From contig NZ_CANMEZ010000014.1 in the NCBI RefSeq assembly GCF_947496985.1, positions 16,379 to 80,378 of the forward strand: 64,000 nt of DNA. Reading direction: 5' to 3'. Under the pieces are notes generated by a model. It was not told the DNA's origin. It saw only the letters and a list, made by a program, of their open reading frames with translations, and did no database searches. Below, piece after piece: positions 4,489 through 62,344 of this stretch (the stretch's first letter is position 1; each line of letters begins with the position of its first letter). The translations under genes and the position numbers were made by a program. The DNA comes from an uncultured Kordia sp. Lineage in GTDB: Bacteria; Bacteroidota; Bacteroidia; Flavobacteriales; Flavobacteriaceae.

Positions 4489-4489
4489 A

Positions 4490-28502: not shown

Positions 28503-28507
28503 AAATT

Positions 28508-42547: not shown

Positions 42548-42580
42548 AAACAGAAATTGGATAACGGTTTCTGTTTTTTT
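42548..42580. terminator. Bidirectional terminator between the peptide gene and xerD
   Basis: 9-bp stem AAACAGAAA / TTTCTGTTT flanked by an A-run and a T-run. It abuts the xerD stop. Confidence 0.6.
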
Positions 42581-43475
42581 ATGTCCTAGGATGATATTTC
42601 TCCATTACCATAGCCAAATGACTTCTATCTACATGCATGTAAATTTCTGTAGTTGTAATACTTTCATGACCTAACATTAATTGAATAGCACGCAAATCAG
42701 CTCCATTCTCTAATAAATGTGTTGCAAATGAATGACGAAATGTATGTGGAGATATTTTCTTTTTTAACCCTGATTTTTCTGTTAAGCGCTTAATAATTGT
42801 AAAAATCATAACGCGTGTTAGTTGTTTTCCGCGTCTATTCAAAAAAACTGTATCACTAAACTCAGGTACATGTTTGGTATGATTGCGTTGTCCATTTACA
42901 TAGAAATTAATATGTTTCTGTGTAAAACTACTTATAGGAACAAAACGCTGTTTATCTCCTTTTCCTGTAACTCTAATAAAGCCTTCATCAAAAAACAAAT
43001 CAGAAAGCTTTAAACCAACCAATTCACTAACACGTAAACCACAACCATATAAGGTTTCTATAATTGCTTTATTTCTGTGTCCTTCATTTTTGGATAGATC
43101 AATGCAAGCAAGAAGCTTTTCAATGTCTTCTATCGCCAAAGTATCAGGTAATTTTCTGCCAATCTTTGGTGCTTCAATTAGTTCCATAGGATTATCTTTT
43201 CGATAATCTTCAAAAACTAAATAATTAAAAAAACTTTTCAGACCAGAAATAATTCGTGTTTGCGAACGTGCATTTAAAATTTTGGCAACTTCATAAATAA
43301 ACTGTTGTACTGTTTCTTCGTCAATAGACAAGGGAGAAGAGTTGATGTTATTTTCAGTAAGATAATGAATCAATTTCTCTATATCATGCGTGTAATTCAC
43401 AATAGTATTGTCAGATAAACCACGTTCGATTCTCAAAAAATGTTGAAAATCTTTAAGCGAATGTGTCCATTTCAT
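42579..43475 (-). CDS. xerD: Site-specific tyrosine recombinase XerD
   Basis: 298 aa with the catalytic region HTFRHSFATHLLENGADLRAIQLMLGHESITTTEIY. Confidence 0.9.
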   Translation of the reverse strand: MKWTHSLKDFQHFLRIERGLSDNTIVNYTHDIEKLIHYLTENNINSSPLSIDEETVQQFIYEVAKILNARSQTRIISGLKSFFNYLVFEDYRKDNPMELIEAPKIGRKLPDTLAIEDIEKLLACIDLSKNEGHRNKAIIETLYGCGLRVSELVGLKLSDLFFDEGFIRVTGKGDKQRFVPISSFTQKHINFYVNGQRNHTKHVPEFSDTVFLNRRGKQLTRVMIFTIIKRLTEKSGLKKKISPHTFRHSFATHLLENGADLRAIQLMLGHESITTTEIYMHVDRSHLAMVMEKYHPRT

Positions 43476-45727: not shown

Positions 45728-46456
45728 TTATAGAGGAATAAAGAAAGCTACCGAATATGCAGATCTACTTTTTGTCTTTACTCTCATTTTAAATTGCCAA
45801 ACTCCAGGTTGTGCTTGGTGATAAGTTTCATTTCTTGAAAGTGACTTCCATTCGCTTACTTTTGTATACCAAGTATTACTGTAGCCAGAAGTTCTGTATT
45901 TCAATCCAAAATAGACTCTTTTTAAAGTATTTCCTCTTATTATTCTAGCACTGTAATGTATACCAGTTGATGAGCTATAATGCGTATAATAATTCCATCC
46001 TGATTTTGCTAAATTACCTTTAGATTTAGGGTGATTAAAGGTAACTGATAATGCTGTCGAAGAATCATTCTTTTTGACATTCATTAACTCAAAAGCTAAT
46101 GGGCTTTTCTCATCGTCAAGAGTGCCAACATCATTATTTTCTTCTGTTTCGTCTTTATTATTTGATAATATTTCATCGTAGTTAGTTTCGGATAAAGTGA
46201 AATTATCTTCAGAGTAAAGATTTAACAGTTCAAGATCATTTGCGTAAACTCTTATAGTTGCAGTATCTCCATGTAATGAAGATAATTCAAAATCTTTACT
46301 AAATTCGTAATCAGTTTTTGCTGAAATAGAATCGGTTTCTTCTGGGATTTCCCCTTTATTACAGCTTGTTAAAAAGGTTGAGACTAATAAAAAAATAGCA
46401 AATACACTCAAGGTGTTTTTTTTTAGTTTAGTTAGGTTAAAAGTTAATGTTTTCAT
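45728..46456 (-). CDS. Putative lipoprotein of unknown function, adjacent to the peptide array
   Basis: 242 aa with a signal plus lipobox (FLTSC), an acidic middle and a basic/aromatic C-terminal half. Confidence 0.5.
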   Translation of the reverse strand: MKTLTFNLTKLKKNTLSVFAIFLLVSTFLTSCNKGEIPEETDSISAKTDYEFSKDFELSSLHGDTATIRVYANDLELLNLYSEDNFTLSETNYDEILSNNKDETEENNDVGTLDDEKSPLAFELMNVKKNDSSTALSVTFNHPKSKGNLAKSGWNYYTHYSSSTGIHYSARIIRGNTLKRVYFGLKYRTSGYSNTWYTKVSEWKSLSRNETYHQAQPGVWQFKMRVKTKSRSAYSVAFFIPL

Positions 46457-46660
46457 GGTTATTAGAATTTTGTTTTCCTTACTCTATTTAAAAATTGGCT
46501 TTTCAGGATTTCGCCATAGTTAGGTGTAATCTTAATTTCATTTTAATGAATGAAATCACTTACAAATAACAATAAAAAGCAAGAATGTAAAAGGAAAGTA
46601 AATGACATTTTATAAAACATCAGTATAAAAAAAGCAGTGTGAAAATACAGGTAAAAGAAA

Positions 46661-46678
46661 AGCGAACCGAAGTTCGCT
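46661..46678 (-). terminator. UUCG-tetraloop hairpin terminator (copy 1)
   Basis: The + strand reads AGCGAACCGAAGTTCGCT, so the minus-strand RNA is AGCGAAC-UUCG-GUUCGCU followed by a U-rich tract. Confidence 0.65.
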
Positions 46679-46739
46679 TACATTTAGTAATTTCTTGCAA
46701 TAATTGAGGTTATTCACAACTATAGTAGTTCGCAAACTA

Positions 46740-46910
46740 CTAATTATGATCGCATCCAGGAGTTAGTTGTTTCTCTTTATCGCAAGTTCCATAAGATTGA
46801 ACTTGACAACAAGCAGATAATTCACTTCCGCCACCTTTAATCAAGTTTTGATTCATTACAGAAATAGGTGTTTTGTTTAGTTGTAATGTTTTAAAATTTC
46901 TTTTCTTCAT
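46740..46910 (-). CDS. GG-leader Cys-rich peptide precursor (56 aa)
   Basis: MKKRNFKTLQLNKTPISVMNQNLIKGG|GSELSACCQVQSYGTCDKEKQLTPGCDHN. The start was moved to the MKK that matches the paralogues. Confidence 0.6.
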   Translation of the reverse strand: MKKRNFKTLQLNKTPISVMNQNLIKGGGSELSACCQVQSYGTCDKEKQLTPGCDHN

Positions 46911-47010
46911 GGTATCTTTTGTTTGGTTTAACAATTAATAATAAGATACATATCCAGATTGTTAACTATTTACGGGATCACCATATTTAACATTTAAAGA
47001 GTATAAAAAA

Positions 47011-47027
47011 ACGAACCGAAGTTCGCT
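47011..47027 (-). terminator. UUCG-loop hairpin terminator (copy 2, shorter stem)
   Basis: ACGAACCGAAGTTCGCT flanked by A7 and T7. Confidence 0.55.
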
Positions 47028-47031
47028 TTTT

Positions 47032-47175
47032 TTAAAAGAAAGTATCGCAAGGTTCAAAACACGATTCAACTATTAAAGTTGGCAATGCTTTTTTACCACC
47101 TTTCAATTCTTCAAATTTCAATGTTGAAATTGCTCTTTTGTTTAGTGTTAACAATTTTAAATTCTGTTTTTTCAT
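47032..47175 (-). CDS. GG-leader peptide precursor, 47 aa (not in ORF track)
   Basis: Manual translation gives MKKQNLKLLTLNKRAISTLKFEELKGG|KKALPTLIVESCFEPCDTFF*. Confidence 0.55.
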   Translation of the reverse strand: MKKQNLKLLTLNKRAISTLKFEELKGGKKALPTLIVESCFEPCDTFF

Positions 47176-47277
47176 AATAAAAAGTTTAAATATTAATTAT
47201 GATAAAACTAGCTTTAAATAGAAAGGAACTATTCGTACAAAATGTACGATTTATCAAAATAGCATGCATAGTATATA

Positions 47278-47475
47278 CTATCCACAAAAAATAAAATTTG
47301 TTCTATATTCTCTATGAGTTGAACAAACTTTAAATGTAAAAGTTACTCCGGATACTGTCTGCCCTGTAGCTGCCGCTGCTCCTGAATTTGCTAAACCACC
47401 TTTTAATAGGACGGCATTAATGTCAGAAATTGTTTTCTTGTTTAAAGCTAATGATTTCAATTGTTGTTTTTTCAT
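47278..47475 (-). CDS. GG-leader peptide precursor (65 aa)
   Basis: MKKQQLKSLALNKKTISDINAVLLKGG|LANSGAAAATGQTVSGVTFTFKVCSTHREYRTNFIFCG. The start was moved to MKK. Confidence 0.6.
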   Translation of the reverse strand: MKKQQLKSLALNKKTISDINAVLLKGGLANSGAAAATGQTVSGVTFTFKVCSTHREYRTNFIFCG

Positions 47476-47642
47476 TGTATAAAATTTTAAGGTTTCTATC
47501 TTCATGGGTTGAGATACACAATTCATTACCCAAAAAAGAAAAATAAACTAGGTAGAATTAAATACAGATGGACACTATATATGTAGCTTTTGGATCGTAA
47601 ATATTCATCCAAAAGCTGTGATTTTAGTATATGATATAAAAA

Positions 47643-47660
47643 AAGCGAACCGAAGTTCGC
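47643..47660 (-). terminator. UUCG-tetraloop hairpin terminator (copy 3)
   Basis: AGCGAACCGAAGTTCGCT is identical to copy 1. A second hairpin lies at 47586-47618. Confidence 0.65.
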
Positions 47661-47672
47661 TTTAAATTTTAA

Positions 47673-47879
47673 TTAGCATAAAATATCTGTATGGCAAATG
47701 CATATAGAGTAATCAGTATTTGGTAAAGGAATAGGTGCTAAAGTGTGTTCAGTATCTGGTTCTACATGACAGATTTGAACGCTATAACATTTAGCTGTAC
47801 GGTATATTCCACCAGTAATACTAATATTAGAAATTGATTTCTTGTTAAGCTCTAAGCTTTTTAAATTCTTTTTTCTCAT
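47673..47879 (-). CDS. GG-leader Cys-rich peptide precursor (68 aa)
   Basis: MRKKNLKSLELNKKSISNISITGG|IYRTAKCYSVQICHVEPDTEHTLAPIPLPNTDYSICICHTDILC. Confidence 0.65.
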   Translation of the reverse strand: MRKKNLKSLELNKKSISNISITGGIYRTAKCYSVQICHVEPDTEHTLAPIPLPNTDYSICICHTDILC

Positions 47880-47990
47880 GATATAGAGTTTTATGATTTT
47901 ATACTTAAATGGGTTTAAATAAGAGAATCATTACCCAAAAGAGAGAATAGTTTGTTAAATAGTACGAATAGTAAAAGGGAGAAAGAAAAA

Positions 47991-48008
47991 AGCGAACCGA
48001 AGTTCGCT
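47991..48008 (-). terminator. UUCG-tetraloop hairpin terminator (copy 4)
   Basis: AGCGAACCGAAGTTCGCT is identical to copies 1 and 3. Confidence 0.65.
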
Positions 48009-48059
48009 TGTGCTTTATACTATTTGGCAATAGCCTCAATAACAGAAAAATTCTTCATA

Positions 48060-48221
48060 CTACATACTAGGTAATGATTTAAGAATCTGACAATCGTTAT
48101 GATGATAACATTGCATACCTGTATTTCCTCCGTTAATTTTTGCTTGTGCAGTTTTGTCCAATTCTTGAACACCTTTTAAGTTTAAAATGTTTTTTTCATC
48201 GTATAAATTTTGGTTTAACAT
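48060..48221 (-). CDS. GG-leader peptide precursor with a different leader type (53 aa)
   Basis: MLNQNLYDEKNILNLKGVQELDKTAQAKINGG|NTGMQCYHHNDCQILKSLPSM. The start was moved to the second Met. Confidence 0.5.
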   Translation of the reverse strand: MLNQNLYDEKNILNLKGVQELDKTAQAKINGGNTGMQCYHHNDCQILKSLPSM

Positions 48222-48307
48222 ATACCAAATGATGAAGAAAAGTATCACCTTAAAAAGTAAGTTGACTTAAATAGGATGATTTAAGACTTATTATAGTTTT
48301 AAAAAGA

Positions 48308-48604
48308 TTATTTCAAATACTTCTTTTCAATATAAAAAGTAGCAAACGGAATCAATGAAGCTACAAAGAAAATAACAAATCGCTTTATAGACCATTTTTG
48401 CTCACGAACTACAATGAAAGCAAAAAGTACATAGGCGATAAACAAAAACCCATGTGCCGTACCAACAATTTTATTTGGCATTGGCATTTCCATAAAATAT
48501 TTTAAAGGCATTGTAATAAAAAGTGCTAAAAACGAAATACCTTCAAGTAGAGCAAGTTGTCCAAATCGTTTTGTGTTTTTAGTAGGAGTGAATGTTGTAT
48601 CCAT
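48308..48604 (-). CDS. DUF3817-like small integral membrane protein
   Basis: LEGISFLALFITMPLKYF....P..VGTAHGFLFIAYV is typical of that family. The start was moved to MDTTF. Confidence 0.55.
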   Translation of the reverse strand: MDTTFTPTKNTKRFGQLALLEGISFLALFITMPLKYFMEMPMPNKIVGTAHGFLFIAYVLFAFIVVREQKWSIKRFVIFFVASLIPFATFYIEKKYLK

Positions 48605-50098: not shown

Positions 50099-50169
50099 AT
50101 CTTAAAATTTTGTTGTCTGATTTTCAAGATGCAAATTTACGGAATTCTAAGGTAACAATAAACTTTCTA

Positions 50170-50525
50170 TACCTGTTTTTACTTCACCTTCGACTCTGCT
50201 CAGTGTAAACACTCATGGTATGTTTGTATCGCTTTGCTCTTTGTATATTAGTAAGCTAGTAATTAAGAGAAATTTATTTATACATTTATTTTGGGAGTTC
50301 CCTTTCGCTATCGCTTCAGGTCGCGCTATTCGCTACAAGTCCGCGCTCGCAAACTCGCTGTGGGCTTTCCACTGCTATCGCTAACTCGGTAGAATACTAA
50401 ATACTAAATTTTGAATACTGGATGTTGAATTTTTGAGTTTACACTGAGCTTGTCGAAGTGTTGATTTGTCAATTCGTTAATTTGTTTGTTTGTCAATTCG
50501 AGCGCAGTCGAGAATACTTAGCATT
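50170..50525. repeat. Cluster of GC-enriched REP-like elements in a 650-nt intergenic region
   Basis: Includes ...CGACTCTGCTCAGTGTAAAC..., a GC-rich block (50290-50400: GGTCGCGCTATTCGCTACAAGTCCGCGCTCGCAAACTCGCTGTGGGCTTTCCACTGCTATCGC), ...ACACTGAGCTTGTCGAAG... and GTCAATTCGAGCGCAGTCGAGAAT. Confidence 0.55.
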
Positions 50526-50754
50526 GCATTTGTGATTTGGTGTATCGAGAACAGCTTAGAACTTCAAAATACTTCTCAATACTAATTTGTTTCACAAATT
50601 CACTAGAAGTGACATTTGGAGTTTTTCAATGAAGTTAGCAAACACTTTTACATTTAAAATTTAGTGTTTTACATTTTGAATTTACCTTTTTTGTAGGAAA
50701 TGTAACATTTGTCTACCTTGTGACTACTAACTTTTTGTAAACACGAGTTAAGAT

Positions 50755-51873
50755 ATGGGAAAACCGAATTTGGTAATAGATAGAGTACACAACAAATTAT
50801 TGTTAAACGGAGAGGTTGTAGGCGAGGTTTATTTAAGTGGTAGAGATAACTGGAGATTTCAAAAAATTTCCACTCGCAGAAGCGATAATATTATTGTAAT
50901 AGATGAAATTGATAATTTTGTAGGTGTAAAGACTTCAAACATTTTTGACCAACATATACAATTTATTATTATTTCATCTAGAAAAGAATTAGAAAATTAT
51001 TTTAATAATATATTCATGAATTCTTATGTCATGTTAAAAAAACGTGGTTATGAGAATGGATTGGAATTATTTTTTTCGGCTGACTCCAAAAAATGGAATT
51101 TTAATTTTAGTTTAAAACTTTTTACTGATACTTTTTTTCAGTCTCTACTAAAAAATCAAAGATTTTTATATGCTTATGACGGTCAAATTGATGAAAATAA
51201 AATTATTAAAGGAATTTTGCTATATAAATCTATAGATAAACAAAAAGATATTAATATTCTTTATTATGAAGTCATAAATTTACTCAAATTAGAAATTGAA
51301 TCAATAATATCAAGATTGACCCAAGAACAAAGTATTAAAAGCAATAATCTAACAAACACTTTCACATTCCCACCAGAAATCCAATCTTCCTGCGAACAAT
51401 ACTTAATTTACTTTGCAACGTTTTTAAAAGACATTGGCATCAATGCAGAAACAAATATCGAATCTAAAGCACATGAAACTTTATTTACAGTAATTCCCGA
51501 AAATGGAGAAGAAGCATTAGACAACATTAAAGAAGCGTTACAAATGTATTTGTCACTTCCTGAAAGTCCAGAGTTTGAGAGTATAGTTACTGGGTTTCTA
51601 GATGTTGGCGCACAACAATTAGCTTCGCAGGTTTTATTTTTAAAGTCGCAACTTATGATGGCAAACTCAGCTATTCAATTAAAAGATGCAACAATCAAGA
51701 GTTTAAATATGACAATCTATCAACAAAGTTTACTTATAGAAAAAGATCAAACTAAAAAAGAAAACGAAGAAAAATTTGCAGGTGGCTTAGTGAGAGTTGG
51801 TGAGTTAAAAATAAAAAACTTCACGTTTGACCTACCAGAATTATTAAGGCGAATCAAACGAAAATTTAAATAA
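50755..51873 (+). CDS. Hypothetical protein (orphan-looking, Asn/Ile/Lys-rich)
   Basis: 372-aa ORF with no motif recognised. Confidence 0.45.
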   Translation: MGKPNLVIDRVHNKLLLNGEVVGEVYLSGRDNWRFQKISTRRSDNIIVIDEIDNFVGVKTSNIFDQHIQFIIISSRKELENYFNNIFMNSYVMLKKRGYENGLELFFSADSKKWNFNFSLKLFTDTFFQSLLKNQRFLYAYDGQIDENKIIKGILLYKSIDKQKDINILYYEVINLLKLEIESIISRLTQEQSIKSNNLTNTFTFPPEIQSSCEQYLIYFATFLKDIGINAETNIESKAHETLFTVIPENGEEALDNIKEALQMYLSLPESPEFESIVTGFLDVGAQQLASQVLFLKSQLMMANSAIQLKDATIKSLNMTIYQQSLLIEKDQTKKENEEKFAGGLVRVGELKIKNFTFDLPELLRRIKRKFK

Positions 51874-52038
51874 CGAATAACGAATTTAAAATGTAAAACG
51901 CTAAATTTAAAATCTGTCACATCGAGCATTATTTGAGATCAAAATACTTTTTGATTAAAAATACTTAACGAAGTTATCGAGATGCAAACCCAAAAGCCCA
52001 AATAGACAACCAATACTAATCCCTAATACCTTCAAAAT

Positions 52039-52581
52039 ATGAAACTCCTCATCATCGGCGCATCAGGCTCAGGAACTACAACACTTGGAAAAGCACTTTC
52101 TAAAGCCACAGACTTTACACACTTAGATGTAGATGATTATTATTGGAAAGTAACAAACCCACCATTTCAATTGAAAGAAGAAATGGCAGTTCGTACCAAA
52201 AACCTACAAGTTGAGTTTGAAAAACATGAAAATGTTATCGTCAGTGGTTCGTTGGTAAGTTGGGGAACGTATTGGCAAACAGCTTTCGATTTAGTAGTGT
52301 TTGTCACTTTAGACAAAGAAATCCGATTGCAACGACTCAAACAACGTGAAGTTGAACGTTACGGAGACAAACTACAAACGGATGCAATTATACAAGAACG
52401 TTCACAAGCATTTTTGGCGTGGGCAACACGTTATGACGATTTCAAATTTACAGGACGTTCTATCAAGATTCATCGTGATTGGTTAAACTCACTTTCGTGT
52501 GAAATCGTTGAAATTGATAGTGAGGTAGCTTTAGAAAAAAATATGAGTCATGTGTTACAATTCTTCAAACCTCATTACTAA
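52039..52581 (+). CDS. P-loop NTPase, adenylate-kinase-like / topology-modulation-like small kinase
   Basis: 180 aa with the Walker A motif GASGSGTTTLGK at the N-terminus. Confidence 0.6.
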   Translation: MKLLIIGASGSGTTTLGKALSKATDFTHLDVDDYYWKVTNPPFQLKEEMAVRTKNLQVEFEKHENVIVSGSLVSWGTYWQTAFDLVVFVTLDKEIRLQRLKQREVERYGDKLQTDAIIQERSQAFLAWATRYDDFKFTGRSIKIHRDWLNSLSCEIVEIDSEVALEKNMSHVLQFFKPHY

Positions 52582-52637
52582 TAGGATTGAATTCCATATC
52601 TTAATTACAAGAATTTAAATTATATCTAATTCCATTT

Positions 52638-53387
52638 ATGCCAATTTCAGACAAACGAAAACATCAACTTGCTTCCTGTAAAATATGTCAATTAAGAGAT
52701 TTTGAACCCGAAGTTGGAATAACCTGTGCATTGACCAAAAAAGTTGCTGATTTTGAAAATGAATGCTCTTCTATACAAATTGATTTTGAAGTATTGGATG
52801 ACAAACAAGTTGAAGTGCATAATACAATCATGAATTATATAAAGACCAACTTTAGGTTATATGGACTTCGAAAAAAAGACTACTTACAACCCAATCATCC
52901 GATTCAAAAAAAATACAATCACAAGAAAAACACCCACAATCTTACATTTAAAGAAATTCTACAACCAAGTGTTTTATTTGGAATTGGTATGTTGGCATTA
53001 TTTGTGTTTTCAACGCTTGCTCTACAAACAGAAAGTGGTTTGAAATTCTTATTTGGGTTTTTAGCTTTTGTGGCAGTATGTTTTACAATTGCAAGAGGAG
53101 TAATCGATTATTATACGCCAGCTAAAAATAGAATCACTACCGATGAACTTGGTTTTACATATAAAGAAAAACGATTTTTTTGGCATGACATTGTTGATTA
53201 TCGTATTTTGGAAAGAAGAGGGAAAAGAGGCTTTTTTAATCTCATAATTGGAACCATTTATGGAGACGTACATTCGTTTGATTTATTGTATGTCAAAATA
53301 ACTCCAGACGAACTTATCGAAATTTTAAATTTAAATAGAAAAGACTATTTTACACGTTTTGAACGCAATCTACCTGAAATATTTTAA
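52638..53387 (+). CDS. Hypothetical membrane protein (N-terminal Cys cluster, 2 central TM)
   Basis: 249-aa ORF carrying CKICQ...C....C. Confidence 0.4.
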   Translation: MPISDKRKHQLASCKICQLRDFEPEVGITCALTKKVADFENECSSIQIDFEVLDDKQVEVHNTIMNYIKTNFRLYGLRKKDYLQPNHPIQKKYNHKKNTHNLTFKEILQPSVLFGIGMLALFVFSTLALQTESGLKFLFGFLAFVAVCFTIARGVIDYYTPAKNRITTDELGFTYKEKRFFWHDIVDYRILERRGKRGFFNLIIGTIYGDVHSFDLLYVKITPDELIEILNLNRKDYFTRFERNLPEIF

Positions 53388-53420
53388 TGTATATTAGCTA
53401 GATATAAATTGTAGTTACCT

Positions 53421-53924
53421 ATGAGAAACTGTATTTCATGCTACCAACAAATAACAGATGATGTTAACTTCTGTCCACACTGTGGAGCAAAACAGTCACA
53501 ATTACACACACAAGAAGAAGTTCGCGCAACGCATCAAGAAACAGAAAACAAACCAGTCGTTATCATTATTGTGCTTGCCATTTTAACAATTTGTGGTTCA
53601 ATATTTACCATTGGACGTGCCGTATTATACGAATTGGTAGGTTCTATGGCTAATGACGATGGCATCATGATAAGAGCTGGAATTTATGTATTTGCTTCTA
53701 TAGGAACAATAGCTGGCGCAATTATGATGTTGCTTAAAAAAATGAATGGTTTGTATCTGTATACTGTCTGTCAAATAATATACATTATCGCAGCTACATT
53801 TGCAGCTATAGCGCACAATTCAAAAGAAAATTTAGCGTCAGTTATCTTTGTTTTCTTTGTAGCGCCTTCAATTTTATTTTTAATATTTTACTGGATAAAA
53901 GATGTTCGTAAACATTTAAAATAG
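53421..53924 (+). CDS. Zinc-ribbon domain membrane protein
   Basis: 167 aa with CISCYQQITDDVNFCPHCG followed by 4 TM helices. Confidence 0.5.
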   Translation: MRNCISCYQQITDDVNFCPHCGAKQSQLHTQEEVRATHQETENKPVVIIIVLAILTICGSIFTIGRAVLYELVGSMANDDGIMIRAGIYVFASIGTIAGAIMMLLKKMNGLYLYTVCQIIYIIAATFAAIAHNSKENLASVIFVFFVAPSILFLIFYWIKDVRKHLK

Positions 53925-53933
53925 TTTCTATTT

Positions 53934-54335
53934 ATGATAACAATTATGAAATGGAAAACCTTTAGGAATACCTGTAACATAATAACGGTGAGCGATCAAA
54001 AAATACGATATGCAATACTTTTAATTTTCATTATTTTTTGTCAGAGTTGTGAAGAAAATTTTAAAGGAGGAAAAGTATACAGTACAGAAAGTGAAGTGCA
54101 TATATTAGATGATATTTTGAATGAAGATCAACAGCGTTTTAAGATTATTTCAGATTCTGTTTCTCCAAATGATGCATATGTCTATATTCATTATAAAGAC
54201 AAAGCAATAAAAAACGAATTAGATGCTGTTGTAAATATACAAACAAACGAATATTGGGCTGTTGTAAAAAATAATCAAGCAAATGAAAATTTGACAGAAG
54301 GACGTATTCCGTCGGCATATAAAATAAAAGGTTGA
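53934..54335 (+). CDS. Hypothetical protein
   Basis: 133-aa ORF with an N-terminal hydrophobic segment ending in C (possible lipobox IIFCQSC). Confidence 0.4.
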   Translation: MITIMKWKTFRNTCNIITVSDQKIRYAILLIFIIFCQSCEENFKGGKVYSTESEVHILDDILNEDQQRFKIISDSVSPNDAYVYIHYKDKAIKNELDAVVNIQTNEYWAVVKNNQANENLTEGRIPSAYKIKG

Positions 54336-54490
54336 ACGCAAGAAAATGAATTGTTATTGACCAAAAACCAATCAAAAAATATACAAGTAGGATATATTAA
54401 AAAGTTAACAACTGGCAATAATATCAATGGTGTGAAAATCATAATTTCAGAAAACTAAAATAAATACTATTACCATAAACAATTCATACA

Positions 54491-55681
54491 ATGTATTTCA
54501 GTTTTAACTTCAAAAGTTCAACCTTATTAATTTTCTTTATTCATGGACTGATATTTACATTATTATTACTGTATAAAGGTATTCGGAACGAAAACAAATC
54601 TAGTTTTTGGCTAGCATCGTTTATCTTTTTATGTTCGCTATATATTGCGCCTTTTATGTTGGGTTATGCAGGTTGGTATGGTAAAGATACATATCGGGAA
54701 ATATTATTTTTTATACCATTTCAGCAGTTATTTCTCATACCACCTTTACTATATTTTTATGTAAAAAGTTCGCTTACAATTTCGTTTCGATTTCAGAAGA
54801 AAGATTGGGTACATTTTATTCCTGCTATACTATACGCACTATATAGTTTGATTGTGTGGATAACAGACGTATTAGTGTTAGATGAATTTTACTTTTATGC
54901 AGATGGACGCGATAAAGATTTATCACTTTGGTATCAAATTTCAGGTTTCTTCATGCTAGTGTTCTATCTATTTCAATGCCTAAAACTGTATACAGCTTAT
55001 AAAAAGGAAACTTACGAAACGGTAAGTTATGCAGATACTATTTTGTACGCATGGATTCAACGATTTTTAATTGCTTTTTTAGGATTATTATTAATTCGAG
55101 TTTTATTCTTTATTCTCAATCCTGAATGGGCAAACTTTGGAAGAAAGTACTGGTATTATCTCTGTTTTTCAGTTCTATTTTATTACATCGCGCTTAGTGG
55201 ATATATTCATATTATAAAAATGCATGCTTCTTTTCAACCAAGATTGTCCACAACTTTTTCTGAGGATTTTCTAGCGGAAGCGGAAAAAGAAAAAATAACA
55301 CCGTCAAATACGGAAACGATGGAAGCTGAAATTACGGGAGTTGATGAAAACCTGAAAAACCAATTGGAAGATTTGATGATTGAAAAGATGATTTTTAAGA
55401 ATCCAAATTTAACCTTGTTTGATGTCGCCAAATTACTTGAAACGCACCCGAAAAAAGTATCAAATATCATTAATAAAGGTTTTAAAGTAAACTTTAACGA
55501 CTTTGTGAATTCGTACAGAACAGAAGAAGTCATCAAAAAAGTTACTTCTGATGAAAATGATTTGAAAACCTTATTAGGAATTGCATTGGACTCTGGATTT
55601 AACTCAAAATCAACGTTTAACAGGGCTTTTAAAAAACATACACAGCAAACTCCTAAAGAATATTTTAGCAAAAAAGTATAA
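54491..55681 (+). CDS. Multi-TM AraC-family transcriptional regulator
   Basis: 396 aa. About 7 hydrophobic helices precede a C-terminal AraC HTH (LGIALDSGFNSKSTFNRAFKKHTQQTPKEY). The antisense ORF 55234-55875 was rejected. Confidence 0.75.
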   Translation: MYFSFNFKSSTLLIFFIHGLIFTLLLLYKGIRNENKSSFWLASFIFLCSLYIAPFMLGYAGWYGKDTYREILFFIPFQQLFLIPPLLYFYVKSSLTISFRFQKKDWVHFIPAILYALYSLIVWITDVLVLDEFYFYADGRDKDLSLWYQISGFFMLVFYLFQCLKLYTAYKKETYETVSYADTILYAWIQRFLIAFLGLLLIRVLFFILNPEWANFGRKYWYYLCFSVLFYYIALSGYIHIIKMHASFQPRLSTTFSEDFLAEAEKEKITPSNTETMEAEITGVDENLKNQLEDLMIEKMIFKNPNLTLFDVAKLLETHPKKVSNIINKGFKVNFNDFVNSYRTEEVIKKVTSDENDLKTLLGIALDSGFNSKSTFNRAFKKHTQQTPKEYFSKKV

Positions 55682-55768
55682 AAAAGACGTGTCAAATCAC
55701 GATTTGGCGCGCTTTTAATAATAAATACTGACACATTTGTAGCATCAAAAAACGCAAAACAGTATTTC

Positions 55769-57412
55769 ATGAAGTCAAATGTATTATGCTTAGCATTTTT
55801 GCTAATATTCGGAGTTGCTTTTGGACAGAGAATAACCAAAGAACAACAGATCAAGTTAGATGAAATTACCATCAAAGATGTTCCAAAAGGCGGTCCAGGA
55901 ATTGCCGTTGGAATTATTCAAAATGGTCATGTTGCATATGAAAACTACGCAGGCTTTGCCAATTTGAAAGACAGTATTCGTATTGGGAAAAGCACACGTT
56001 TCAACATTGCATCTAATGGAAAACAATTTACAGCGTTTGCTGTTTTAGTCTTAGCAGAAAAAAGCAAACTAAACTTAAAAGATGATATTAGAAAATACCT
56101 TCCGAATCTGTATAAAAATATTAAAAAACCAATTAAAATTGAACACTTAATAAACCATTCTAGCGGAATTCGTGATATATATGATTTATGGAGTTTACAA
56201 GGGGTTACTTGGTGGAAACAAAAGTTTGACAATGCTGACGCGATGCAATTATTAGAAAAGCAAAACGATTTAAACTTTGAACCAGGCAGCAAACATTCAT
56301 ACAGTAATTCTAATTATATCATCCTAACACAAGTCATAGAAAAAGTGACCGGACAAAGTTTTGTTAGCTATACAGATGCACTTTTTAAATCTTTAGGAAT
56401 GCCAAATACTTCGTTTGTTTCAGATTATACAAACATTAAAGAACCAATTGCAAAACCATATTTTAATTTTAATACATGGACAACTTACAATTGGACCTGT
56501 AGTATTCATGGAGATGGAAATTTGTTTACTACATTGGAAGATCAATTACAGTGGGAGAAAATTATTCAAACTAAAAAAAGTACTGTTTTTTCGAAAGCTA
56601 TCTTAGAGAAAAGTCAGGGACTAATTGAAAATACAAACATTGAAAATTATGGATATGGATTGGAATTTGGCGAATTTAGAAATGTACCATACACATTTCA
56701 TGCTGGATCAACAGGCGCTTGGAAGGCATATGTAACTCGTTTTCCTTCTAAAAAAATTTCTATCATCACAATTATAAATAGTGGGAAAATTGACCCAACT
56801 GGACAAACTTTAGAAATGGCAACAGTTCTATTAAATAAAACCAACGAAAAAGAAACGTTCAGAATTACACCAGAGAAAATAGGAGCAAAGGTTACTATTG
56901 AAGATGTTTTGGGTATTTATAGAACAAAAGGTGGATACATTATGAAGTTTGAAGAGCGAGATGGGGATTTATACATGTTACGTTCAGGGAGAAATGATAT
57001 GAAATTACTACGCGAAGCTGACAATGTATTTCATCAATGGAATGATGCACCTTTTAAACAAGAATTTACAAAAAACGAAAATGGAGTGTTGCAAGTAACA
57101 GTGTATTACCCAAGTGTAGCACCTTTTACGCTAACACGTATTGAAAGTGATTTAAGTAGGTTTGATTTTAAAACCTTAAGTGGAACATTTTACAATGAAG
57201 AAACAGATGTTTCTTTTTCTATAAAGTATGTAAAAGATCAAGCATATGAGGTGAAATTTGGTAAGAAAAAGAAAAGCGGATTGTTAGTATATGCAAACGA
57301 AATGTTAGTAGACGATTACAACCTTTCATTTGAAAAAGATGCTAATGGCACTATTAATGAAATACGTGTGACATCTGGAAGAATTCAGAATGTTCGTTTT
57401 GTTCGGAAATAA
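55769..57412 (+). CDS. Serine hydrolase, beta-lactamase/PBP4-like family
   Basis: 547 aa with a signal peptide, S-x-x-K (ASNGKQF) and Y-x-N (YSNSNY). Confidence 0.8.
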   Translation: MKSNVLCLAFLLIFGVAFGQRITKEQQIKLDEITIKDVPKGGPGIAVGIIQNGHVAYENYAGFANLKDSIRIGKSTRFNIASNGKQFTAFAVLVLAEKSKLNLKDDIRKYLPNLYKNIKKPIKIEHLINHSSGIRDIYDLWSLQGVTWWKQKFDNADAMQLLEKQNDLNFEPGSKHSYSNSNYIILTQVIEKVTGQSFVSYTDALFKSLGMPNTSFVSDYTNIKEPIAKPYFNFNTWTTYNWTCSIHGDGNLFTTLEDQLQWEKIIQTKKSTVFSKAILEKSQGLIENTNIENYGYGLEFGEFRNVPYTFHAGSTGAWKAYVTRFPSKKISIITIINSGKIDPTGQTLEMATVLLNKTNEKETFRITPEKIGAKVTIEDVLGIYRTKGGYIMKFEERDGDLYMLRSGRNDMKLLREADNVFHQWNDAPFKQEFTKNENGVLQVTVYYPSVAPFTLTRIESDLSRFDFKTLSGTFYNEETDVSFSIKYVKDQAYEVKFGKKKKSGLLVYANEMLVDDYNLSFEKDANGTINEIRVTSGRIQNVRFVRK

Positions 57413-57443
57413 TAAGTAAACATAAAAAATACAAGGAGGCTTT

Positions 57444-57507
57444 CTAAAAAGTAATATAAAACGTCATTCTGGATCAAATTCGGTTTGACGAAAATTCAAC
57501 TTTTTAG
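57444..57507. repeat. REP/MITE-like element, same family as 592-693
   Basis: The terminal IR is CTAAAAAGT / ACTTTTTAG and the inner IR is AACGTCA / TGACG. It shares its 5' ~24 nt with the element at 592. Confidence 0.5.
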
Positions 57508-57681
57508 TCAGCTTCTTTTTTATAGAACATTTTCAAGAAAAAGAAGTTGTTTTGAAACGAAATACAAAAAAATACTACCAATATTTTAGTACATAAACAG
57601 TATTTTAAAAAAGGATATAAATTTCATTTTCACAACACTTAGAAAAACTATATCTTGAGAATTGTACGAATAAGGTATTTT

Positions 57682-58905: not shown

Positions 58906-59452
58906 ATTCAAAAAATACAGTAAAAATATCTTAATCGCCTTTGTTTTGTTATTCGTATTTAAGGGGTTTTTATATCAAAAACTAGTGAATTATGCTAAAA
59001 CTGATACAAGAAAAGACTATGCAATTACCAATCAAAAACTTATCAAAACCATTGAAAAAGAAATAGCAGGAAAAGAACTAACTATTGATGCTATTATTAA
59101 TTGTAGTTTGAAGCTTACGGCAAAACATTTAAAGTTTAAATTAGAAGAAACTTCAAACAATCCGAATATCAATTTTGAAACGCAAAAAGCACATTGTGTA
59201 GGTTATGCAGCTTTATGTAATAGTATTGGAAACTACATTTTGGAAAAGAAACAACTAGCAAATACATACAAATTTACACATGTTGTTGGAAAGATAGAAT
59301 TTTTAGGATTTGATACACATCAACTATTTAAAAGTCCATTCTTTAAAGATCACGATTACAATGAAATCATTCATAAACAAACTGGTGAAAAGCAATTCAT
59401 TGATGCAAGTGTATATGATTATACTTGGATAAAGCGTATAAGATCTAATTAA
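58898..59452 (+). CDS. Hypothetical protein (N-terminal TM; possible transglutaminase-like Cys/His/Asp core)
   Basis: The ATG at 58898 overlaps the POT gene end by 8 nt. The fold suggestion rests only on the motifs KAHCVGYAALC and KDHDYNE. Confidence 0.4.
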   Translation: MDKFKKYSKNILIAFVLLFVFKGFLYQKLVNYAKTDTRKDYAITNQKLIKTIEKEIAGKELTIDAIINCSLKLTAKHLKFKLEETSNNPNINFETQKAHCVGYAALCNSIGNYILEKKQLANTYKFTHVVGKIEFLGFDTHQLFKSPFFKDHDYNEIIHKQTGEKQFIDASVYDYTWIKRIRSN

Positions 59453-59752
59453 ATAAAAGAATTTCTAAATTAAACTATGCAAAAAATCACAGGTCAAAAG
59501 CATCCGAAAAAAGCATTTATATATGGACTAGCTGTTATGTCATAACTTCCAGTTCCTAGAGTTGAAAACGGTTCTGTAGAAATCTCAAAACGTCCTTCAA
59601 TATACTTGCTTTGAATATCATGAAGTAGTATCGTAAATGCTCTGTTGACTACAAACTGATTTGAAACACCACTAATATTTGGAACTTATATTCCAAGTGG
59701 TGCTAAAGCTGTAAAATTGACAAAATCATACTTAGATAAACATGAAAAGGTT

Positions 59753-59787
59753 AAAAGATGTAAACTTTCTAGTATTTTACATCTTTT
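59753..59787 (-). terminator. Hairpin terminator downstream of the 94-aa GG-leader gene
   Basis: 12-bp stem AAAAGATGTAAA / TTTACATCTTTT with an 11-nt loop. Confidence 0.5.
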
Positions 59788-59795
59788 AAATAAGA

Positions 59796-60080: not shown

Positions 60081-60159
60081 GAGTACGTATAATTAAAAAA
60101 TTCAATAACTAAAACTACAGATTGTTCGCTAACTCACTAAAAATATAAATGAAAAATAA

Positions 60160-61859: not shown

Positions 61860-61908
61860 ATATGATTTTTTGGTAATGCTAATATATCCATATCGTGTAA
61901 AATAATAA

Positions 61909-62105: not shown

Positions 62106-62291
62106 ATGAAAAAAAGAAATTTAAAATCACTTAAACTAAACAAGAAATTTATTTCAAACTTTAAAAGTATAGAAATTAGAGGAGGACTTAGCGGATTGAC
62201 ACGCTGTGGCTGTCCTGCTCCGGAAAGAACAAATTCATGTCAAGAACCACTTAGTCGAACAGATCAAGTAACTTGTTTAGGATGTTATTAG
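62106..62291 (+). CDS. GG-leader Cys-rich peptide precursor (61 aa)
   Basis: MKKRNLKSLKLNKKFISNFKSIEIRGG|LSGLTRCGCPAPERTNSCQEPLSRTDQVTCLGCY. The leader is nearly identical to that of 47673-47879. Confidence 0.65.
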   Translation: MKKRNLKSLKLNKKFISNFKSIEIRGGLSGLTRCGCPAPERTNSCQEPLSRTDQVTCLGCY

Positions 62292-62326
62292 GAGGATTTA
62301 GTTTCCAAGTATAAATTTTATGGAAA

Positions 62327-62344
62327 AGCGAGCTTAAGTTCGCT
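62327..62344 (+). terminator. Variant of the AGCGAAC hairpin terminator (copy 5)
   Basis: AGCGAGC-TTAA-GTTCGCT followed by TTTTCTC. Confidence 0.55.

What the first reader, a model, noticed from the sequence alone, without database searches (positions are those of the whole stretch)
46661..48221. Tandem array of five monocistronic GG-leader peptide genes, four of them ending in the same UUCG-tetraloop terminator
Seen directly: five minus-strand genes of 47-68 codons sit head to tail.
- Four share the leader M(K/R)K.NLK.L.LNK..IS...(7-10 aa)GG. The fifth has an L..ELDK..Q..I.GG leader.
- The cores after GG are unrelated to one another and carry 2-5 Cys.
- One gene (47032-47175) is below the ORF-track cutoff, and three others have spurious N-terminal extensions in the track.
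- Four of the five are followed by AGCGAACCGAAGTTCGCT (three copies are 18/18 identical). On the coding strand this is a C(UUCG)G-closed tetraloop hairpin with a U-rich tail, so each gene looks like its own transcription unit.
- Genes 47278 and 47673 also share a 5' leader block (TTTTGGGTAATGA .. AACCCAT.AAG) about 45-70 nt upstream of the ATG.

Established: double-glycine leaders are removed by C39-peptidase ABC exporters, and such precursors include class II bacteriocins, signalling peptides and Bacteroidetes lanthipeptide or rSAM substrates.

Unusual: there is no exporter, immunity gene, LanB/C/M or rSAM enzyme anywhere in this 64 kb. Instead the array lies between housekeeping genes (a lipoprotein and DUF3817/lpdA). 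It looks like a diversifying cassette array of secreted peptides that depends on machinery encoded elsewhere.
Basis: partly seen in the sequence, partly recalled or inferred. Interest (0 to 1): 0.75.

Follow-up and report, generated by a model that had tools for sequence, protein, structure and literature searches.

The report
Orphan Kordia double-glycine peptide gene array
This stretch of a marine Kordia (Flavobacteriaceae) genome holds four working genes and one decayed gene for small cysteine-rich peptides with a cleavable double-glycine leader; they belong to a very large, mostly unnamed gene family, and no processing or export enzyme was found next to any copy examined.

Summary
Five minus-strand small ORFs sit head to tail. 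Four carry the leader MKKxNLKxLxLNKxxIS…GG, and four are followed by GCGAAC-UUCG-GUUCGC plus a U-tract. No exporter, Lan or rSAM gene lies anywhere in the 64 kb.

- **Real genes.** P1, P2 and P4 have Kordia orthologues with dN/dS 0.03–0.3 while synonymous sites are near saturation.
- **Large family.** A profile search finds about 1,900 clusters at 50% identity. The leader is almost invariant and the cores are hypervariable and Cys/Thr/Ser/Pro-rich.
- **Fifth gene decayed.** It has a frameshift and two in-frame stops relative to intact 60–61-aa orthologues.
- **Family-specific hairpin.** 30 copies occur in 320 kb of Kordia DNA. All are at peptide genes, and every stem variant is a G·U wobble on the sense strand.
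- **Own promoters.** Units carry conserved palindromes upstream of a Bacteroidota-type −7 box.
- **Variable hot spot.** The array between DUF3817 and the Dph6-like gene is empty in K. algicida and differs in every species examined.
- **Machinery not found.** It is absent from all 18 family loci examined.

The leader fits the published Bacteroidota class I lanthipeptide type (LxLxKx5L…GG) but scores below the curated cut-off. Best reading: autonomous precursor modules served by remote shared machinery, as with prochlorosins. This is a variant of a known kind and moderately interesting.

The parts
46661..46678 (-). Terminator hairpin after P1 (GCGAAC-UUCG-GUUCGC plus U-tract)
   Evidence: Exact 18-mer. 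Terminator scan. Fold -24.7 kcal/mol for the 3' region, z -3.4.
46740..46910 (-). P1 precursor gene, 56 aa: MKKRNFKTLQLNKTPISVMNQNLIKGG | GSELSACCQVQSYGTCDKEKQLTPGCDHN
   Evidence: Orthologues 79-80% identical in K. jejudonensis and K. zhangzhouensis. Core dN/dS 0.03 against K. zhangzhouensis.
46970..46990 (-). Type A upstream element TTAAATATGGTGATCCCGTAA (consensus TTAAnTAnGGTnnTnCCGTAA, a palindrome TTACGG-N5-CCGTAA). It ends 59 nt before the P1 ATG. A -7-like box TATCTTAT lies at 46941-46948.
   Evidence: The same motif lies 51-59 nt before the ATG of about 16 family genes in Kordia genomes and metagenome contigs. A TAnnTTTn box follows it by about 20 nt.
47010..47027 (-). Terminator hairpin after P2 (one change, giving G1·U16)
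   Evidence: Fold -12.3 kcal/mol, z -4.65.
47032..47175 (-). P2 precursor gene, 47 aa: MKKQNLKLLTLNKRAISTLKFEELKGG | KKALPTLIVESCFEPCDTFF
   Evidence: Orthologues P0006, P0010, P0013 and P0030. dN/dS 0.20 against strain YSTF-M3. Best hit to NF038153 is 19.5 bits, below the cut-off of 22.
47203..47249 (-). P2 upstream region: perfect palindrome TCGTACATTTTGTACGA (47233-47249) and -7-like box TAGTTTTA (47203-47210)
   Evidence: Both are conserved in the P2 orthologues of K. zhangzhouensis and YSTF-M3.
47278..47475 (-). P3 precursor gene, 65 aa: MKKQQLKSLALNKKTISDINAVLLKGG | LANSGAAAATGQTVSGVTFTFKVCSTHREYRTNFIFCG. No family hairpin follows it.
   Evidence: Orthologue P0016. The 3' region folds no better than shuffles, z -1.4.
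47500..47535 (-). Type B upstream block of P3: TTTTGGGTAATGA-N15-AACCCATGAAG
47644..47661 (-). Terminator hairpin after P4
   Evidence: z -3.9.
47673..47879 (-). P4 precursor gene, 68 aa: MRKKNLKSLELNKKSISNISITGG | IYRTAKCYSVQICHVEPDTEHTLAPIPLPNTDYSICICHTDILC (5 Cys)
   Evidence: Orthologues lie at the same locus in YSTF-M3 and at a different locus in K. antarctica. dN/dS 0.17. Five Cys are kept in all orthologues.
47904..47940 (-). Type B upstream block of P4: TTTTGGGTAATGA-N12-AACCCATTTAAG
   Evidence: Also present before the P4 orthologues of K. antarctica and YSTF-M3.
47991..48008 (-). Terminator hairpin after the P5 remnant
   Evidence: The same position is occupied after the intact orthologues.
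48015..48221 (-). P5: decayed copy of a second-type GG peptide. Intact orthologues are 60-61 aa, MKK.ILN..GV.E..K..Q..INGG | ..GMQC....DC.IL.SLPGME.E.FFC.WGYCQI.
   Evidence: The DNA alignment with three intact orthologues shows 7 A instead of 8 after the ancestral ATG (48197-48199), GAG>TAG at 48060-48062 and TGG>TGA within 48033-48041. An upstream ATG at 48219-48221 keeps a 53-aa ORF open.
48266..48285 (-). Type D upstream palindrome CTTAAAT-N6-ATTTAAG before P5
   Evidence: Conserved before the YSTF-M3 P5 orthologue and a related gene in strain SMS9.
62106..62343 (+). Sixth family member (P6, 61 aa, 62106-62291) with variant hairpin GCGAGC-UUAA-GUUCGC (62328-62343)
   Evidence: z -3.5. Orthologue P0002.

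Best explanation
The region is an intergenic hot-spot array of four intact genes and one decayed gene for double-glycine-leader precursor peptides.

**The family.** It is very large and centred on Kordia. The leader MKK(R/K/Q)NLKSLxLNKKSISN(L/F)…GG is almost invariant. It is an instance of the Bacteroidota LxLxKx5L…GG leader described for class I lanthipeptide precursors. The cores are hypervariable and rich in Cys, Thr, Ser and Pro.

**The module.** Each gene looks like an autonomous unit. It has a type-specific palindromic element over the -35 region, a short A-rich 5' UTR, the leader and the core. A Bacteroidota -7 box (TAnnTTTn) was identified before P1 and P2 and in the type A units of other loci. 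In four of the five units a nearly invariant GCGAAC-UUCG-GUUCGC hairpin with a U-tract follows and acts as an intrinsic terminator.

**Proposed mechanism.** The invariant leader is the handle for one shared machinery encoded elsewhere in the genome. Most likely a C39-peptidase ABC exporter cuts after GG. Thioether-forming enzymes (LanB/LanC type or radical SAM) probably act on the cores first. This is one machinery with many substrates, as in prochlorosins. The products are most likely secreted competition or signalling peptides.

**Shown:** the genes are real and constrained; the family and its size; the module anatomy; the locus variation; the absence of machinery nearby.

**Inferred:** transcription boundaries, cleavage and export, modification chemistry, biological role.
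For: **Coding.** pS is 0.46-0.88 but dN/dS is 0.03-0.31 in both leader and core for P1, P2 and P4 against their orthologues.

**Family.**
- 135 word-indexed hits, mostly Kordia.
- 1,891 representatives at 50% identity with E<=1e-3.
- Leader positions 1-19 are nearly invariant in 232 sequences.
- 119 sequences fall into 75 core clusters.

**Leader type.**
- 24 of 119 family members hit NF038153 lant_leader_L1a at E<=0.01, and 2 hit TIGR04149.
- P1-P3 score 14-19.5 bits against NF038153.
- L-x-L-N-K-x5-(M/L/I/F) is visible in all five LNK-type peptides. Walker et al. 2020 (PMC7268733) describe LxLxKx5L plus GG leaders for Bacteroidota class I LanAs, often with a C39 protease in the cluster.

**Thioether rather than disulfide only.** All 234 cores contain Cys (11.8%), but Cys number shows no parity bias: 57 even against 59 odd in the low-redundancy set. 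P4 keeps 5 Cys in every orthologue.

**Terminator.**
- 30 hairpins in 320 kb of Kordia DNA. 25 lie within 130 nt after a GG-type small ORF on the same strand. Of the other five, three follow a peptide gene or a decayed remnant, one follows a family member in sense orientation, and one lies at a contig start.
- 66 of 66 stem cells pair, and every stem variant is G·U or U·G on the sense strand.

**Promoters.** The type A motif sits at a fixed 51-59 nt from the ATG in about 16 units, followed by a -7 box. Types B, C and D are conserved among orthologues.

**Hot spot.**

**Remote machinery is plausible at genus level.** K. antarctica has an antiSMASH lanthipeptide cluster (PMC7477175). The supplement of PMC11118758 reports Kordia clusters with LanC, Peptidase C39, ABC transporter and HlyD, and calls Kordia RiPP-rich.
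Against: - No C39-ABC exporter, LanB/C or rSAM enzyme was found in the window. None was seen next to any of the 18 family loci examined. The partner is therefore entirely inferred for this genome.
- The window peptides fall below the curated cut-off of NF038153, and P4 does not hit it at all.
- P3 lacks a terminator, so P3 and P2 could be co-transcribed.
- There are no expression data.
- The promoter assignment rests on consensus matches only, and the generic sigma-70 scan was not enriched.
- The absence of Cys parity bias is indirect evidence for modification.
- The AlphaFold model of P4 was uninformative (pLDDT 50.6).
Confidence: 0.6

Rival explanations
1. The peptides are unmodified, disulfide-bonded class II-type bacteriocins or other secreted peptides. 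A remote C39-ABC transporter cleaves and exports them, periplasmic oxidation forms disulfides, and no RiPP enzymes are involved.
For: - GG leaders and Cys-rich cores are present.
- The intact P5-type peptides have 4 Cys and a class II-like leader.
- No modifying enzyme lies near any array.
- Bacteroidetocins are a precedent for disulfide-bonded GG peptides in this phylum (PMC6671954).
- The first 116-sequence set shows a mild excess of even Cys counts, 72 against 44.
Against: - Low-redundancy representatives show no parity bias, 57 even against 59 odd.
- P4 conserves an odd number of Cys.
- No immunity, TM-protein or thiol-oxidoreductase genes are adjacent, unlike bacteroidetocin loci.
- The leader resembles the lanthipeptide L1a and rSAM-target leader models rather than bacteriocin models.
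Confidence: 0.25
2. The peptides are extracellular signals (pheromones) of a peptide-based communication system. After GG cleavage and export they are sensed by membrane regulators such as the TPR-TM-AraC protein encoded next to P6.
For: - A 558-aa protein with an N-terminal TPR region, a hydrophobic stretch and a C-terminal AraC HTH lies divergently next to P6. Its 45%-identical orthologue in K. antarctica lies next to five family genes.
- Another array is followed by an AraC regulator.
- Shared palindromic upstream motifs suggest regulon-type control.
Against: - The array under study has no adjacent regulator.
- Two of the three AraC adjacencies are orthologous, so independent support is thin.
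- About 1,900 hypervariable cores, with many paralogues per genome, fit an arsenal better than a signal.
- The TPR domain's location and any peptide binding are untested.
Confidence: 0.1
3. The array is an integron-like or other mobile cassette array in which the hairpins are recombination sites rather than terminators.
For: - ORF-plus-palindrome units lie head to tail.
- Content and order differ between species, and the P4 orthologue sits at another locus in K. antarctica.
- A tyrosine recombinase gene lies about 3 kb away at 42579-43475.
Against: - That recombinase is conserved at the same place in K. algicida, which has no array, and in all other species. It looks like housekeeping XerC/D.
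- The hairpin is a 16-nt perfect stem-loop with a U-tract, always in sense orientation. Its variants are tolerated only as RNA G·U pairs.
- Units carry their own promoter-like elements.
- There is no similarity to plasmids or phages.
Confidence: 0.03
4. The ORFs are chance reading frames in conserved non-coding DNA.
For: They are very short and AT-rich, and several were not called by gene finders.
Against: - Reading frames are preserved across species with near-saturated synonymous change and dN/dS well below 1.
- Hundreds of homologues share the leader.
Confidence: 0.01

Closest known systems
Bacteroidota class I lanthipeptide precursors with LxLxKx5L…GG leaders (Walker et al. 2020; NCBIfam NF038153 lant_leader_L1a; the pinensin family)
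   Same: Same phylum and same leader logic: MKK start, L-x-L-x-K-x5-hydrophobic, ending in GG. The cores are rich in Cys, Ser and Thr. The NF038153 profile is the best hit, though weak.
   Different: Scores fall below the curated cut-off. No LanB/LanC or C39 protease lies in the neighbourhood of any copy examined. The genes are dispersed as autonomous modules among housekeeping genes rather than embedded in a biosynthetic cluster.
Prochlorosins (ProcA/ProcM) of marine picocyanobacteria
   Same: There are many paralogues per genome. The leader is highly conserved and the cores hypervariable. Many precursor genes are encoded far from the single modifying enzyme, and content varies between strains.
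   Different: The leader is unrelated (Nif11/NHLP type). The enzyme is a class II LanM. No equivalent of the invariant family-specific terminator or the shared upstream palindromes has been described to my knowledge. For Kordia the enzyme has not been identified.
TIGR04149 (GG_sam_targ_CFB) rSAM-modified GG peptides of Bacteroidota
   Same: Short GG leader with a similar N-terminus, and Cys-containing cores. Two of 119 family members hit weakly, and UniRef names two members 'Natural product'.
   Different: The window peptides do not hit the model. No radical SAM or SPASM gene is nearby.
Bacteroidetocins (class IIf bacteriocins; Coyne et al. 2019)
   Same: GG-leader peptides of Bacteroidota with four Cys, cleaved after GG. 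This resembles the P5-type peptides.
   Different: Bacteroidetocin leaders are 15-16 aa, against 25 aa here. Their genes sit with a TM protein, a thiol oxidoreductase and an ABC/peptidase gene, and none of these is present here. No sequence similarity was detected by family models.
Kordia as a 'RiPP-rich genus' (TrRiPP deep-learning mining, Microbiome 2024, PMC11118758)
   Same: It probably covers the same peptides. The paper reports many predicted rSAM- or lanthipeptide-type precursors in Kordia, and Kordia clusters with LanC, C39, ABC and HlyD.
   Different: In the parts I read, the paper does not describe the leader family, the orphan arrays among housekeeping genes, the invariant terminator or the promoter motifs.

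Membership tests
Double-glycine leader peptides (substrates of C39-peptidase ABC exporters) | N-terminal leader of about 15-30 aa ending in GG (or GA/GS), non-hydrophobic and not a Sec signal | tested here: met
   Leaders of 24-27 aa ending in GG in P1-P4 and P6, and 31 aa in the P5 ORF. They are charged and Lys-rich, with no hydrophobic core.
Double-glycine leader peptides (substrates of C39-peptidase ABC exporters) | Hydrophobic residues at -4, -7 and -12 relative to the cleavage site | tested here: inconclusive
   Read directly from the sequences. P2: L-4, F-7, I-12 (all met). P3: L-4, A-7, I-12. P1: I-4, Q-7, I-12. P4: I-4, N-7, K-12. P5 type: I-4, L/Q-7 within the L..EL..I.GG pattern.
Double-glycine leader peptides (substrates of C39-peptidase ABC exporters) | A cognate Peptidase_C39-domain ABC transporter (with or without an HlyD partner) in the genome | not testable with these tools
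   Absent from the 64 kb and from all flanks examined. The rest of the genome was not available. The literature reports C39/ABC/HlyD clusters in Kordia.
NF038153 lant_leader_L1a / Bacteroidota class I lanthipeptide precursors | HMM score at or above the curated cut-off (22 bits) | tested here: not met
   P1 14.4, P2 19.5 and P3 16.8 bits; P4 and P5 have no hit. 24 of 119 homologues hit at E<=0.01, best 3e-4.
NF038153 lant_leader_L1a / Bacteroidota class I lanthipeptide precursors | LxLxKx5L leader motif followed by GG (Walker 2020) | tested here: met
   LQLNKTPISVM, LTLNKRAISTL, LALNKKTISDI, LELNKKSISNI and LKLNKKFISNF. The motif definition is from PMC7268733.
NF038153 lant_leader_L1a / Bacteroidota class I lanthipeptide precursors | LanB (or split LanB) and LanC encoded in the same cluster | tested here: not met
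   None in the window or next to the other family loci examined.
NF038153 lant_leader_L1a / Bacteroidota class I lanthipeptide precursors | Dehydrated Ser/Thr and (methyl)lanthionine rings in the product | not testable with these tools
   Only indirect evidence. Cores contain Cys 11.8%, Thr 10.7% and Ser 7.9%, and Cys number shows no even-count bias.
TIGR04149 GG_sam_targ_CFB (rSAM-modified GG peptides) | HMM match and an adjacent radical SAM/SPASM maturase | tested here: not met
   No hit for the window peptides. 2 of 119 homologues hit weakly. No rSAM gene nearby.
Bacteroidetocins (class IIf) | 15-16-aa GG leader, 42-48-aa mature peptide with 4 Cys, and adjacent TM protein, thiol oxidoreductase and ABC/peptidase genes | tested here: not met
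   The intact P5-type leader is 25 aa and the mature part about 35-36 aa with 4 Cys. The ancillary genes are absent. The definition is from PMC6671954.
Integron gene-cassette array | attC sites (at least about 55 nt, imperfect, with conserved R/L boxes), promoterless cassettes and an adjacent IntI integrase | tested here: not met
   The 16-nt perfect hairpin with a U-tract shows sense-strand G·U variation. Units carry promoter-like elements. The only tyrosine recombinase nearby is conserved in the array-less K. algicida.
Any Rfam RNA family (for the hairpin or the 5' blocks) | Score at or above the gathering threshold | tested here: not met
   Only sub-threshold, terminator-driven matches in 46300-48400: TarB 31 bits against 80, and similar.

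The most novel reading that the evidence does not exclude
Kordia carries a Bacteroidota counterpart of the prochlorosin system, taken further.

- It has dozens of autonomous promoter-leader-core-terminator modules per genome.
- The modules are co-regulated through a few shared palindromic operators.
- All feed one remote, promiscuous thioether-forming and C39-export machinery.
- New modules are gained, lost and moved between intergenic hot spots by recombination between the conserved leader and the invariant hairpin that flank each hypervariable core.

A subset, such as P6 next to the membrane TPR-AraC protein, could double as self-sensed signals.
Probability: 0.25. Interest if true: 0.7.

Novelty: new variant of a known kind. 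Interest (0 to 1): 0.5.

Why it matters
If one remote enzyme set really matures this many different cores, Kordia would be a natural combinatorial peptide library in a cultivable, algicidal marine bacterium. Only the invariant leader would be needed as a handle, which is useful for RiPP engineering and for understanding competition in algal blooms.

The invariant terminator and the fixed-distance promoter motifs give simple DNA signatures for finding these tiny genes. Annotation pipelines often miss them. One gene here is 47 codons, and several orthologues were uncalled or misextended.

The finding also shows that cluster-centred genome mining will undercount precursors in Bacteroidota.

Tried and rejected
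- **Looking up the window's own genome.** The DUF3817 and lpdA proteins were not on record, so the source genome could not be retrieved. The closest lpdA genes, at 96% identity, are from K. algicida OT-1 and a Kordia MAG.
- **Searching for the partner machinery.**
  - Pfam on every ORF of 90 aa or more not nested in a longer one.
  - Pfam tables for the genes flanking nine family loci reached through eight look-ups.
  - Large ORFs next to metagenomic copies.
  - A regex screen for C39/ABC motifs over all 1.55 Mb fetched.
  - Nothing was found.
- **Metagenome scan with the family profile.** It returned only 8 loci, all among housekeeping genes.
- **Rfam on the region.** Only sub-threshold matches driven by the terminators.
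- **Pfam on the peptides.** Nothing.
- **NCBIfam on the second-type (P5-like) leaders.** Only insignificant leader similarities: ComC, leader_Chryseo, cyan_ocin_like.
- **AlphaFold2 of P4 with four orthologues.** pLDDT 50.6, unusable, so no fold search was run.
- **Plasmid and phage collections.** No similarity.
- **Generic sigma-70 promoter scan.** Not enriched. The Bacteroidota -33/-7 consensus was examined by hand instead.
- **Hairpin as a general Kordia terminator.** Considered and rejected, because all 30 copies in 320 kb sit at peptide genes.
- **The 242-aa lipoprotein as a relocated copy.** It is not homologous to the lipoprotein found between lpdA and DUF3817 in other species.


Full report
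**1. What is in the sequence**

Five small ORFs lie head to tail on the minus strand between 46.6 and 48.3 kb.
- P1, 46740-46910, 56 aa.
- P2, 47032-47175, 47 aa.
- P3, 47278-47475, 65 aa.
- P4, 47673-47879, 68 aa.
- P5, 48060-48221, 53 aa.

P1 to P4 begin M(K/R)K.(N/Q)(L/F)K.L.LNK..IS and reach GG after 24-27 residues. P5 has an L..ELDK..Q..I.GG leader.

The 18-mer AGCGAACCGAAGTTCGCT occurs four times: three exact copies and one with a single mismatch. Shuffles give none. Each copy lies 5-62 nt after a stop codon and is followed by a T-run. As RNA, each folds into a 6-bp stem closed on a UUCG loop, extended by flanking A/U pairs. Three of the four regions give z-scores of -3.4 to -4.7.

P3 has no such hairpin, and its 3' region folds no better than shuffles.

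At the DNA level the four leaders are 64-72% identical. The cores cannot be aligned. The hairpin block is 88-100% identical.

**2. Source organism and neighbourhood**

lpdA is 96% identical to the genes of Kordia algicida OT-1 and a Kordia MAG. GC content is 31.6%.

The flanking genes are a lipoprotein with no Pfam match, DUF3817, lpdA, a Dph6-like ATP-binding protein, dehydroquinase and an XerC/D-like recombinase.

Pfam scans of every ORF of 90 aa or more that is not nested inside a longer one found no Peptidase_C39, ABC exporter, HlyD, LanB/C/M or radical SAM protein in the 64 kb.

**3. The genes are real**

A profile of the leader-bearing peptides retrieved 135 proteins. Nearly all the named ones come from Kordia species.

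Each intact window peptide has orthologues with a conserved core.
- P1: K. jejudonensis and K. zhangzhouensis, 79-80% identity.
- P2: four orthologues.
- P3: one orthologue.
- P4: K. antarctica, YSTF-M3 and metagenomes.

For P1, P2 and P4, orthologue DNA was available. There the proportion of synonymous differences is 0.46-0.88, close to saturation. dN/dS is 0.03-0.31 in both leader and core. The P1 core shows 2 non-synonymous against 10 synonymous changes. Chance ORFs are excluded.

**4. P5 is a remnant**

Three intact orthologues of 60-61 aa exist, in YSTF-M3, the ALOHA MAG and a metagenome contig. They read MKK.ILN..GV.E..K..Q..INGG followed by a 4-Cys core ending FFC.WGYCQI(A/S).

The DNA alignment shows three lesions in the window copy.
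- One A is missing from the run after the ancestral ATG.
- GAG has become TAG.
- TGG has become TGA.

An upstream ATG keeps a 53-aa ORF open, but the last two Cys are lost. I treat P5 as a decaying gene.

The ALOHA MAG array also contains truncated leader remnants. Gene death therefore appears to be part of the dynamics of these arrays.

**5. Family size and nature**

An exhaustive HMM search of 1.84 billion cluster representatives gave 1,891 hits at E<=1e-3 and 96 at E<=1e-10.

In 232 sequences the first 19 leader positions are almost invariant: M K K (R/K/Q) N L K S L x L N K K S I S N (L/F). Cores have a median length of 36 aa. The 119 sequences fall into 75 unrelated core clusters.

Every core contains Cys (11.8% of residues). 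Thr (10.7%), Ser (7.9%) and Pro (8.0%) are also abundant. The number of Cys shows no preference for even values in the low-redundancy set, 57 even against 59 odd. P4 keeps five Cys in all its orthologues. This argues against a purely disulfide-paired design and leaves room for thioether cross-links.

**6. Relation to known leader families**

- NCBIfam NF038153 (lant_leader_L1a, class I lanthipeptide) is the only consistent hit. It scores 14.4-19.5 bits for P1-P3 against a cut-off of 22, and does not hit P4. It is hit by 24 of 119 homologues at E<=0.01. TIGR04149 is hit by 2.
- Pfam finds nothing.
- Walker et al. 2020 describe Bacteroidota class I LanA leaders with LxLxKx5L ending in GG, often with a C39 protease in the cluster (PMC7268733). 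All five LNK-type peptides in the window fit that motif.
- The family therefore works like that leader type but fails its curated membership threshold and its genomic-context criterion.
- The P5 type matches no model. It differs from bacteroidetocins in leader length and in context.

**7. The hairpin is a family hallmark**

In 320 kb of Kordia-type DNA (window, seven genomic loci from five genomes, two more K. antarctica loci, eight metagenome loci) there are 30 copies with at most 2 mismatches.
- 25 lie within 130 nt downstream of a GG-type small ORF on the same strand.
- Three follow a peptide gene or a decayed or partial remnant that the automatic filter missed.
- One, scored on the opposite strand, follows a family member when read in sense orientation.
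- One lies at a contig start.

None was found elsewhere. It follows both leader types.

The 16-mer is identical in four named Kordia species, although synonymous sites are near saturation. The eleven distinct variants keep 66 of 66 stem cells paired. Every stem change is a G·U or U·G wobble on the sense strand, which would be an A·C mismatch on the other strand. The shuffle control is weak because there are few variants (41 of 500).

This points to selection on an RNA hairpin in the mRNA, that is, an intrinsic terminator and/or 3' stabiliser inherited with each gene duplicate.

**8. Upstream elements**

About 16 units in Kordia genomes and metagenome contigs, including P1, carry TTAAnTAnGGTnnTnCCGTAA (a palindrome TTACGG-N5-CCGTAA). 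It ends 51-59 nt before the ATG and is followed about 20 nt later by a TAnnTTTn box like the Bacteroidota -7 element.

Other types have their own elements.
- P2 orthologues share TCGTACAnnnTGTACGA plus TAG(T/C)TTTA.
- P3 and P4 orthologues share TTTGGGTAATGA…AACCC.
- P5-type genes share CTTAAAT-N5/6-ATTTAAG.

Each unit therefore seems to have its own regulated promoter. That supports separate transcription units but does not prove them.

**9. Comparative genomics of the locus**

The interval between DUF3817 and the Dph6-like gene differs in every genome examined.
- K. algicida OT-1: no peptide gene.
- K. zhangzhouensis: P2 and P1 orthologues.
- YSTF-M3: P4, P2, three others and an intact P5.
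- ALOHA MAG: one intact LNK-type gene, decayed leader remnants and an intact P5.
- The window: the P5 remnant, then P4, P3, P2 and P1.

In K. antarctica the P4 orthologue sits in a different array, between a Peptidase_M15 gene and a pseudouridine synthase gene. It has the same 5' block there but no family hairpin immediately downstream; the hairpins in that array follow neighbouring genes.

All 18 family loci examined lie between housekeeping genes, and none has an adjacent exporter or maturase. There is no similarity to plasmids or phages.

**10. Literature**

- K. antarctica has an antiSMASH lanthipeptide cluster (PMC7477175).
- A 2024 deep-learning survey calls Kordia a RiPP-rich genus. Predicted rSAM- and lanthipeptide-type precursors dominate, and it reports Kordia clusters containing LanC with a nucleotidyltransferase, Peptidase C39, ABC transporter and HlyD (PMC11118758).
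- The general richness is therefore known. I did not find the leader family, orphan arrays, invariant terminator or promoter motifs described.
- Walker et al. also note that prochlorosin precursors are often far from their LanM. That is the closest functional analogue.

**11. Verdict**

- P5 is a pseudogene.
- Missing local machinery is the rule for this family rather than an oddity of this locus.
- Export and modification remain inferred.

The most likely mechanism is autonomous precursor modules whose invariant leader directs them to a shared, remotely encoded C39 exporter, probably after thioether formation. This is a new variant of a known kind. It is interesting for its scale and its tidy module architecture rather than for a new principle.

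Noticed in passing
window 60183-62343: A sixth family gene (P6, 62106-62291 +) lies divergently next to a 558-aa protein with an N-terminal TPR region, a hydrophobic stretch (about residues 377-400) and a C-terminal AraC HTH. Its 45%-identical orthologue in K. antarctica (L097 7162-8853) lies next to five tightly packed family genes that have no hairpins between them. This could be a sensor-regulator for the peptides.
   Followed up: partly
window 46476-46517 (-): Sub-threshold Rfam match to DUF805b RNA (28 bits against a gathering score of 35.6, E 2.7e-5) in the 5' region of the 242-aa lipoprotein gene.
   Followed up: no
window 45728-46456 (-): The 242-aa lipoprotein (lipobox LTSC) flanking the array has no Pfam match. 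It is not homologous to the 207-217-aa lipoprotein that sits between lpdA and DUF3817 in other Kordia. That gene is missing from the window, so the locus has been remodelled.
   Followed up: partly
window 50100-62300: In K. zhangzhouensis the DUF1572 gene and its neighbour lie directly upstream of lpdA. In the window they are 12 kb away (62372-63402). The intervening block looks like an insertion or rearrangement. It holds an AraC regulator, a beta-lactamase-family protein, an MFS/POT transporter, the TPR-AraC protein and P6.
   Followed up: partly
window 5-5539: A cluster of a PAS-domain protein, an HU-HIG protein, a SLATT_5 2TM effector-domain protein and a Ser/Thr protein kinase. It is reminiscent of a conflict or defence island.
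   Followed up: no
window 27963-28891: An ECF-type sigma factor (Sigma70_r2/r4_2, 179 aa) is followed by a DUF6768 membrane protein, a likely anti-sigma factor. It is a candidate reader of the unusual upstream motifs, but there is no evidence linking them.
   Followed up: no
L002 (K. algicida OT-1) about 14400-14680 (-): K. algicida lacks the array at the lpdA locus. It still has a second-type GG peptide gene (MLKKILNLTGVDALTKIDQVQANGG…) with a type A-like motif 75 nt upstream.
   Followed up: partly
L082 9637-11530 (Kordia sp. YSTF-M3): An array of six units, each ending in the family hairpin. It mixes both leader types and includes very short peptides (31 aa, MLEKFEQYKTENLQLILGG…). An AraC regulator follows it.
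   Followed up: partly
L001 10830-11080 (Kordia MAG ALOHA_ZT_18): Truncated leader remnants, for example MKKKSFKSLALNKTQVSNFNALLRK followed by a stop, and degenerate hairpins. These indicate ongoing decay of family members.
   Followed up: partly
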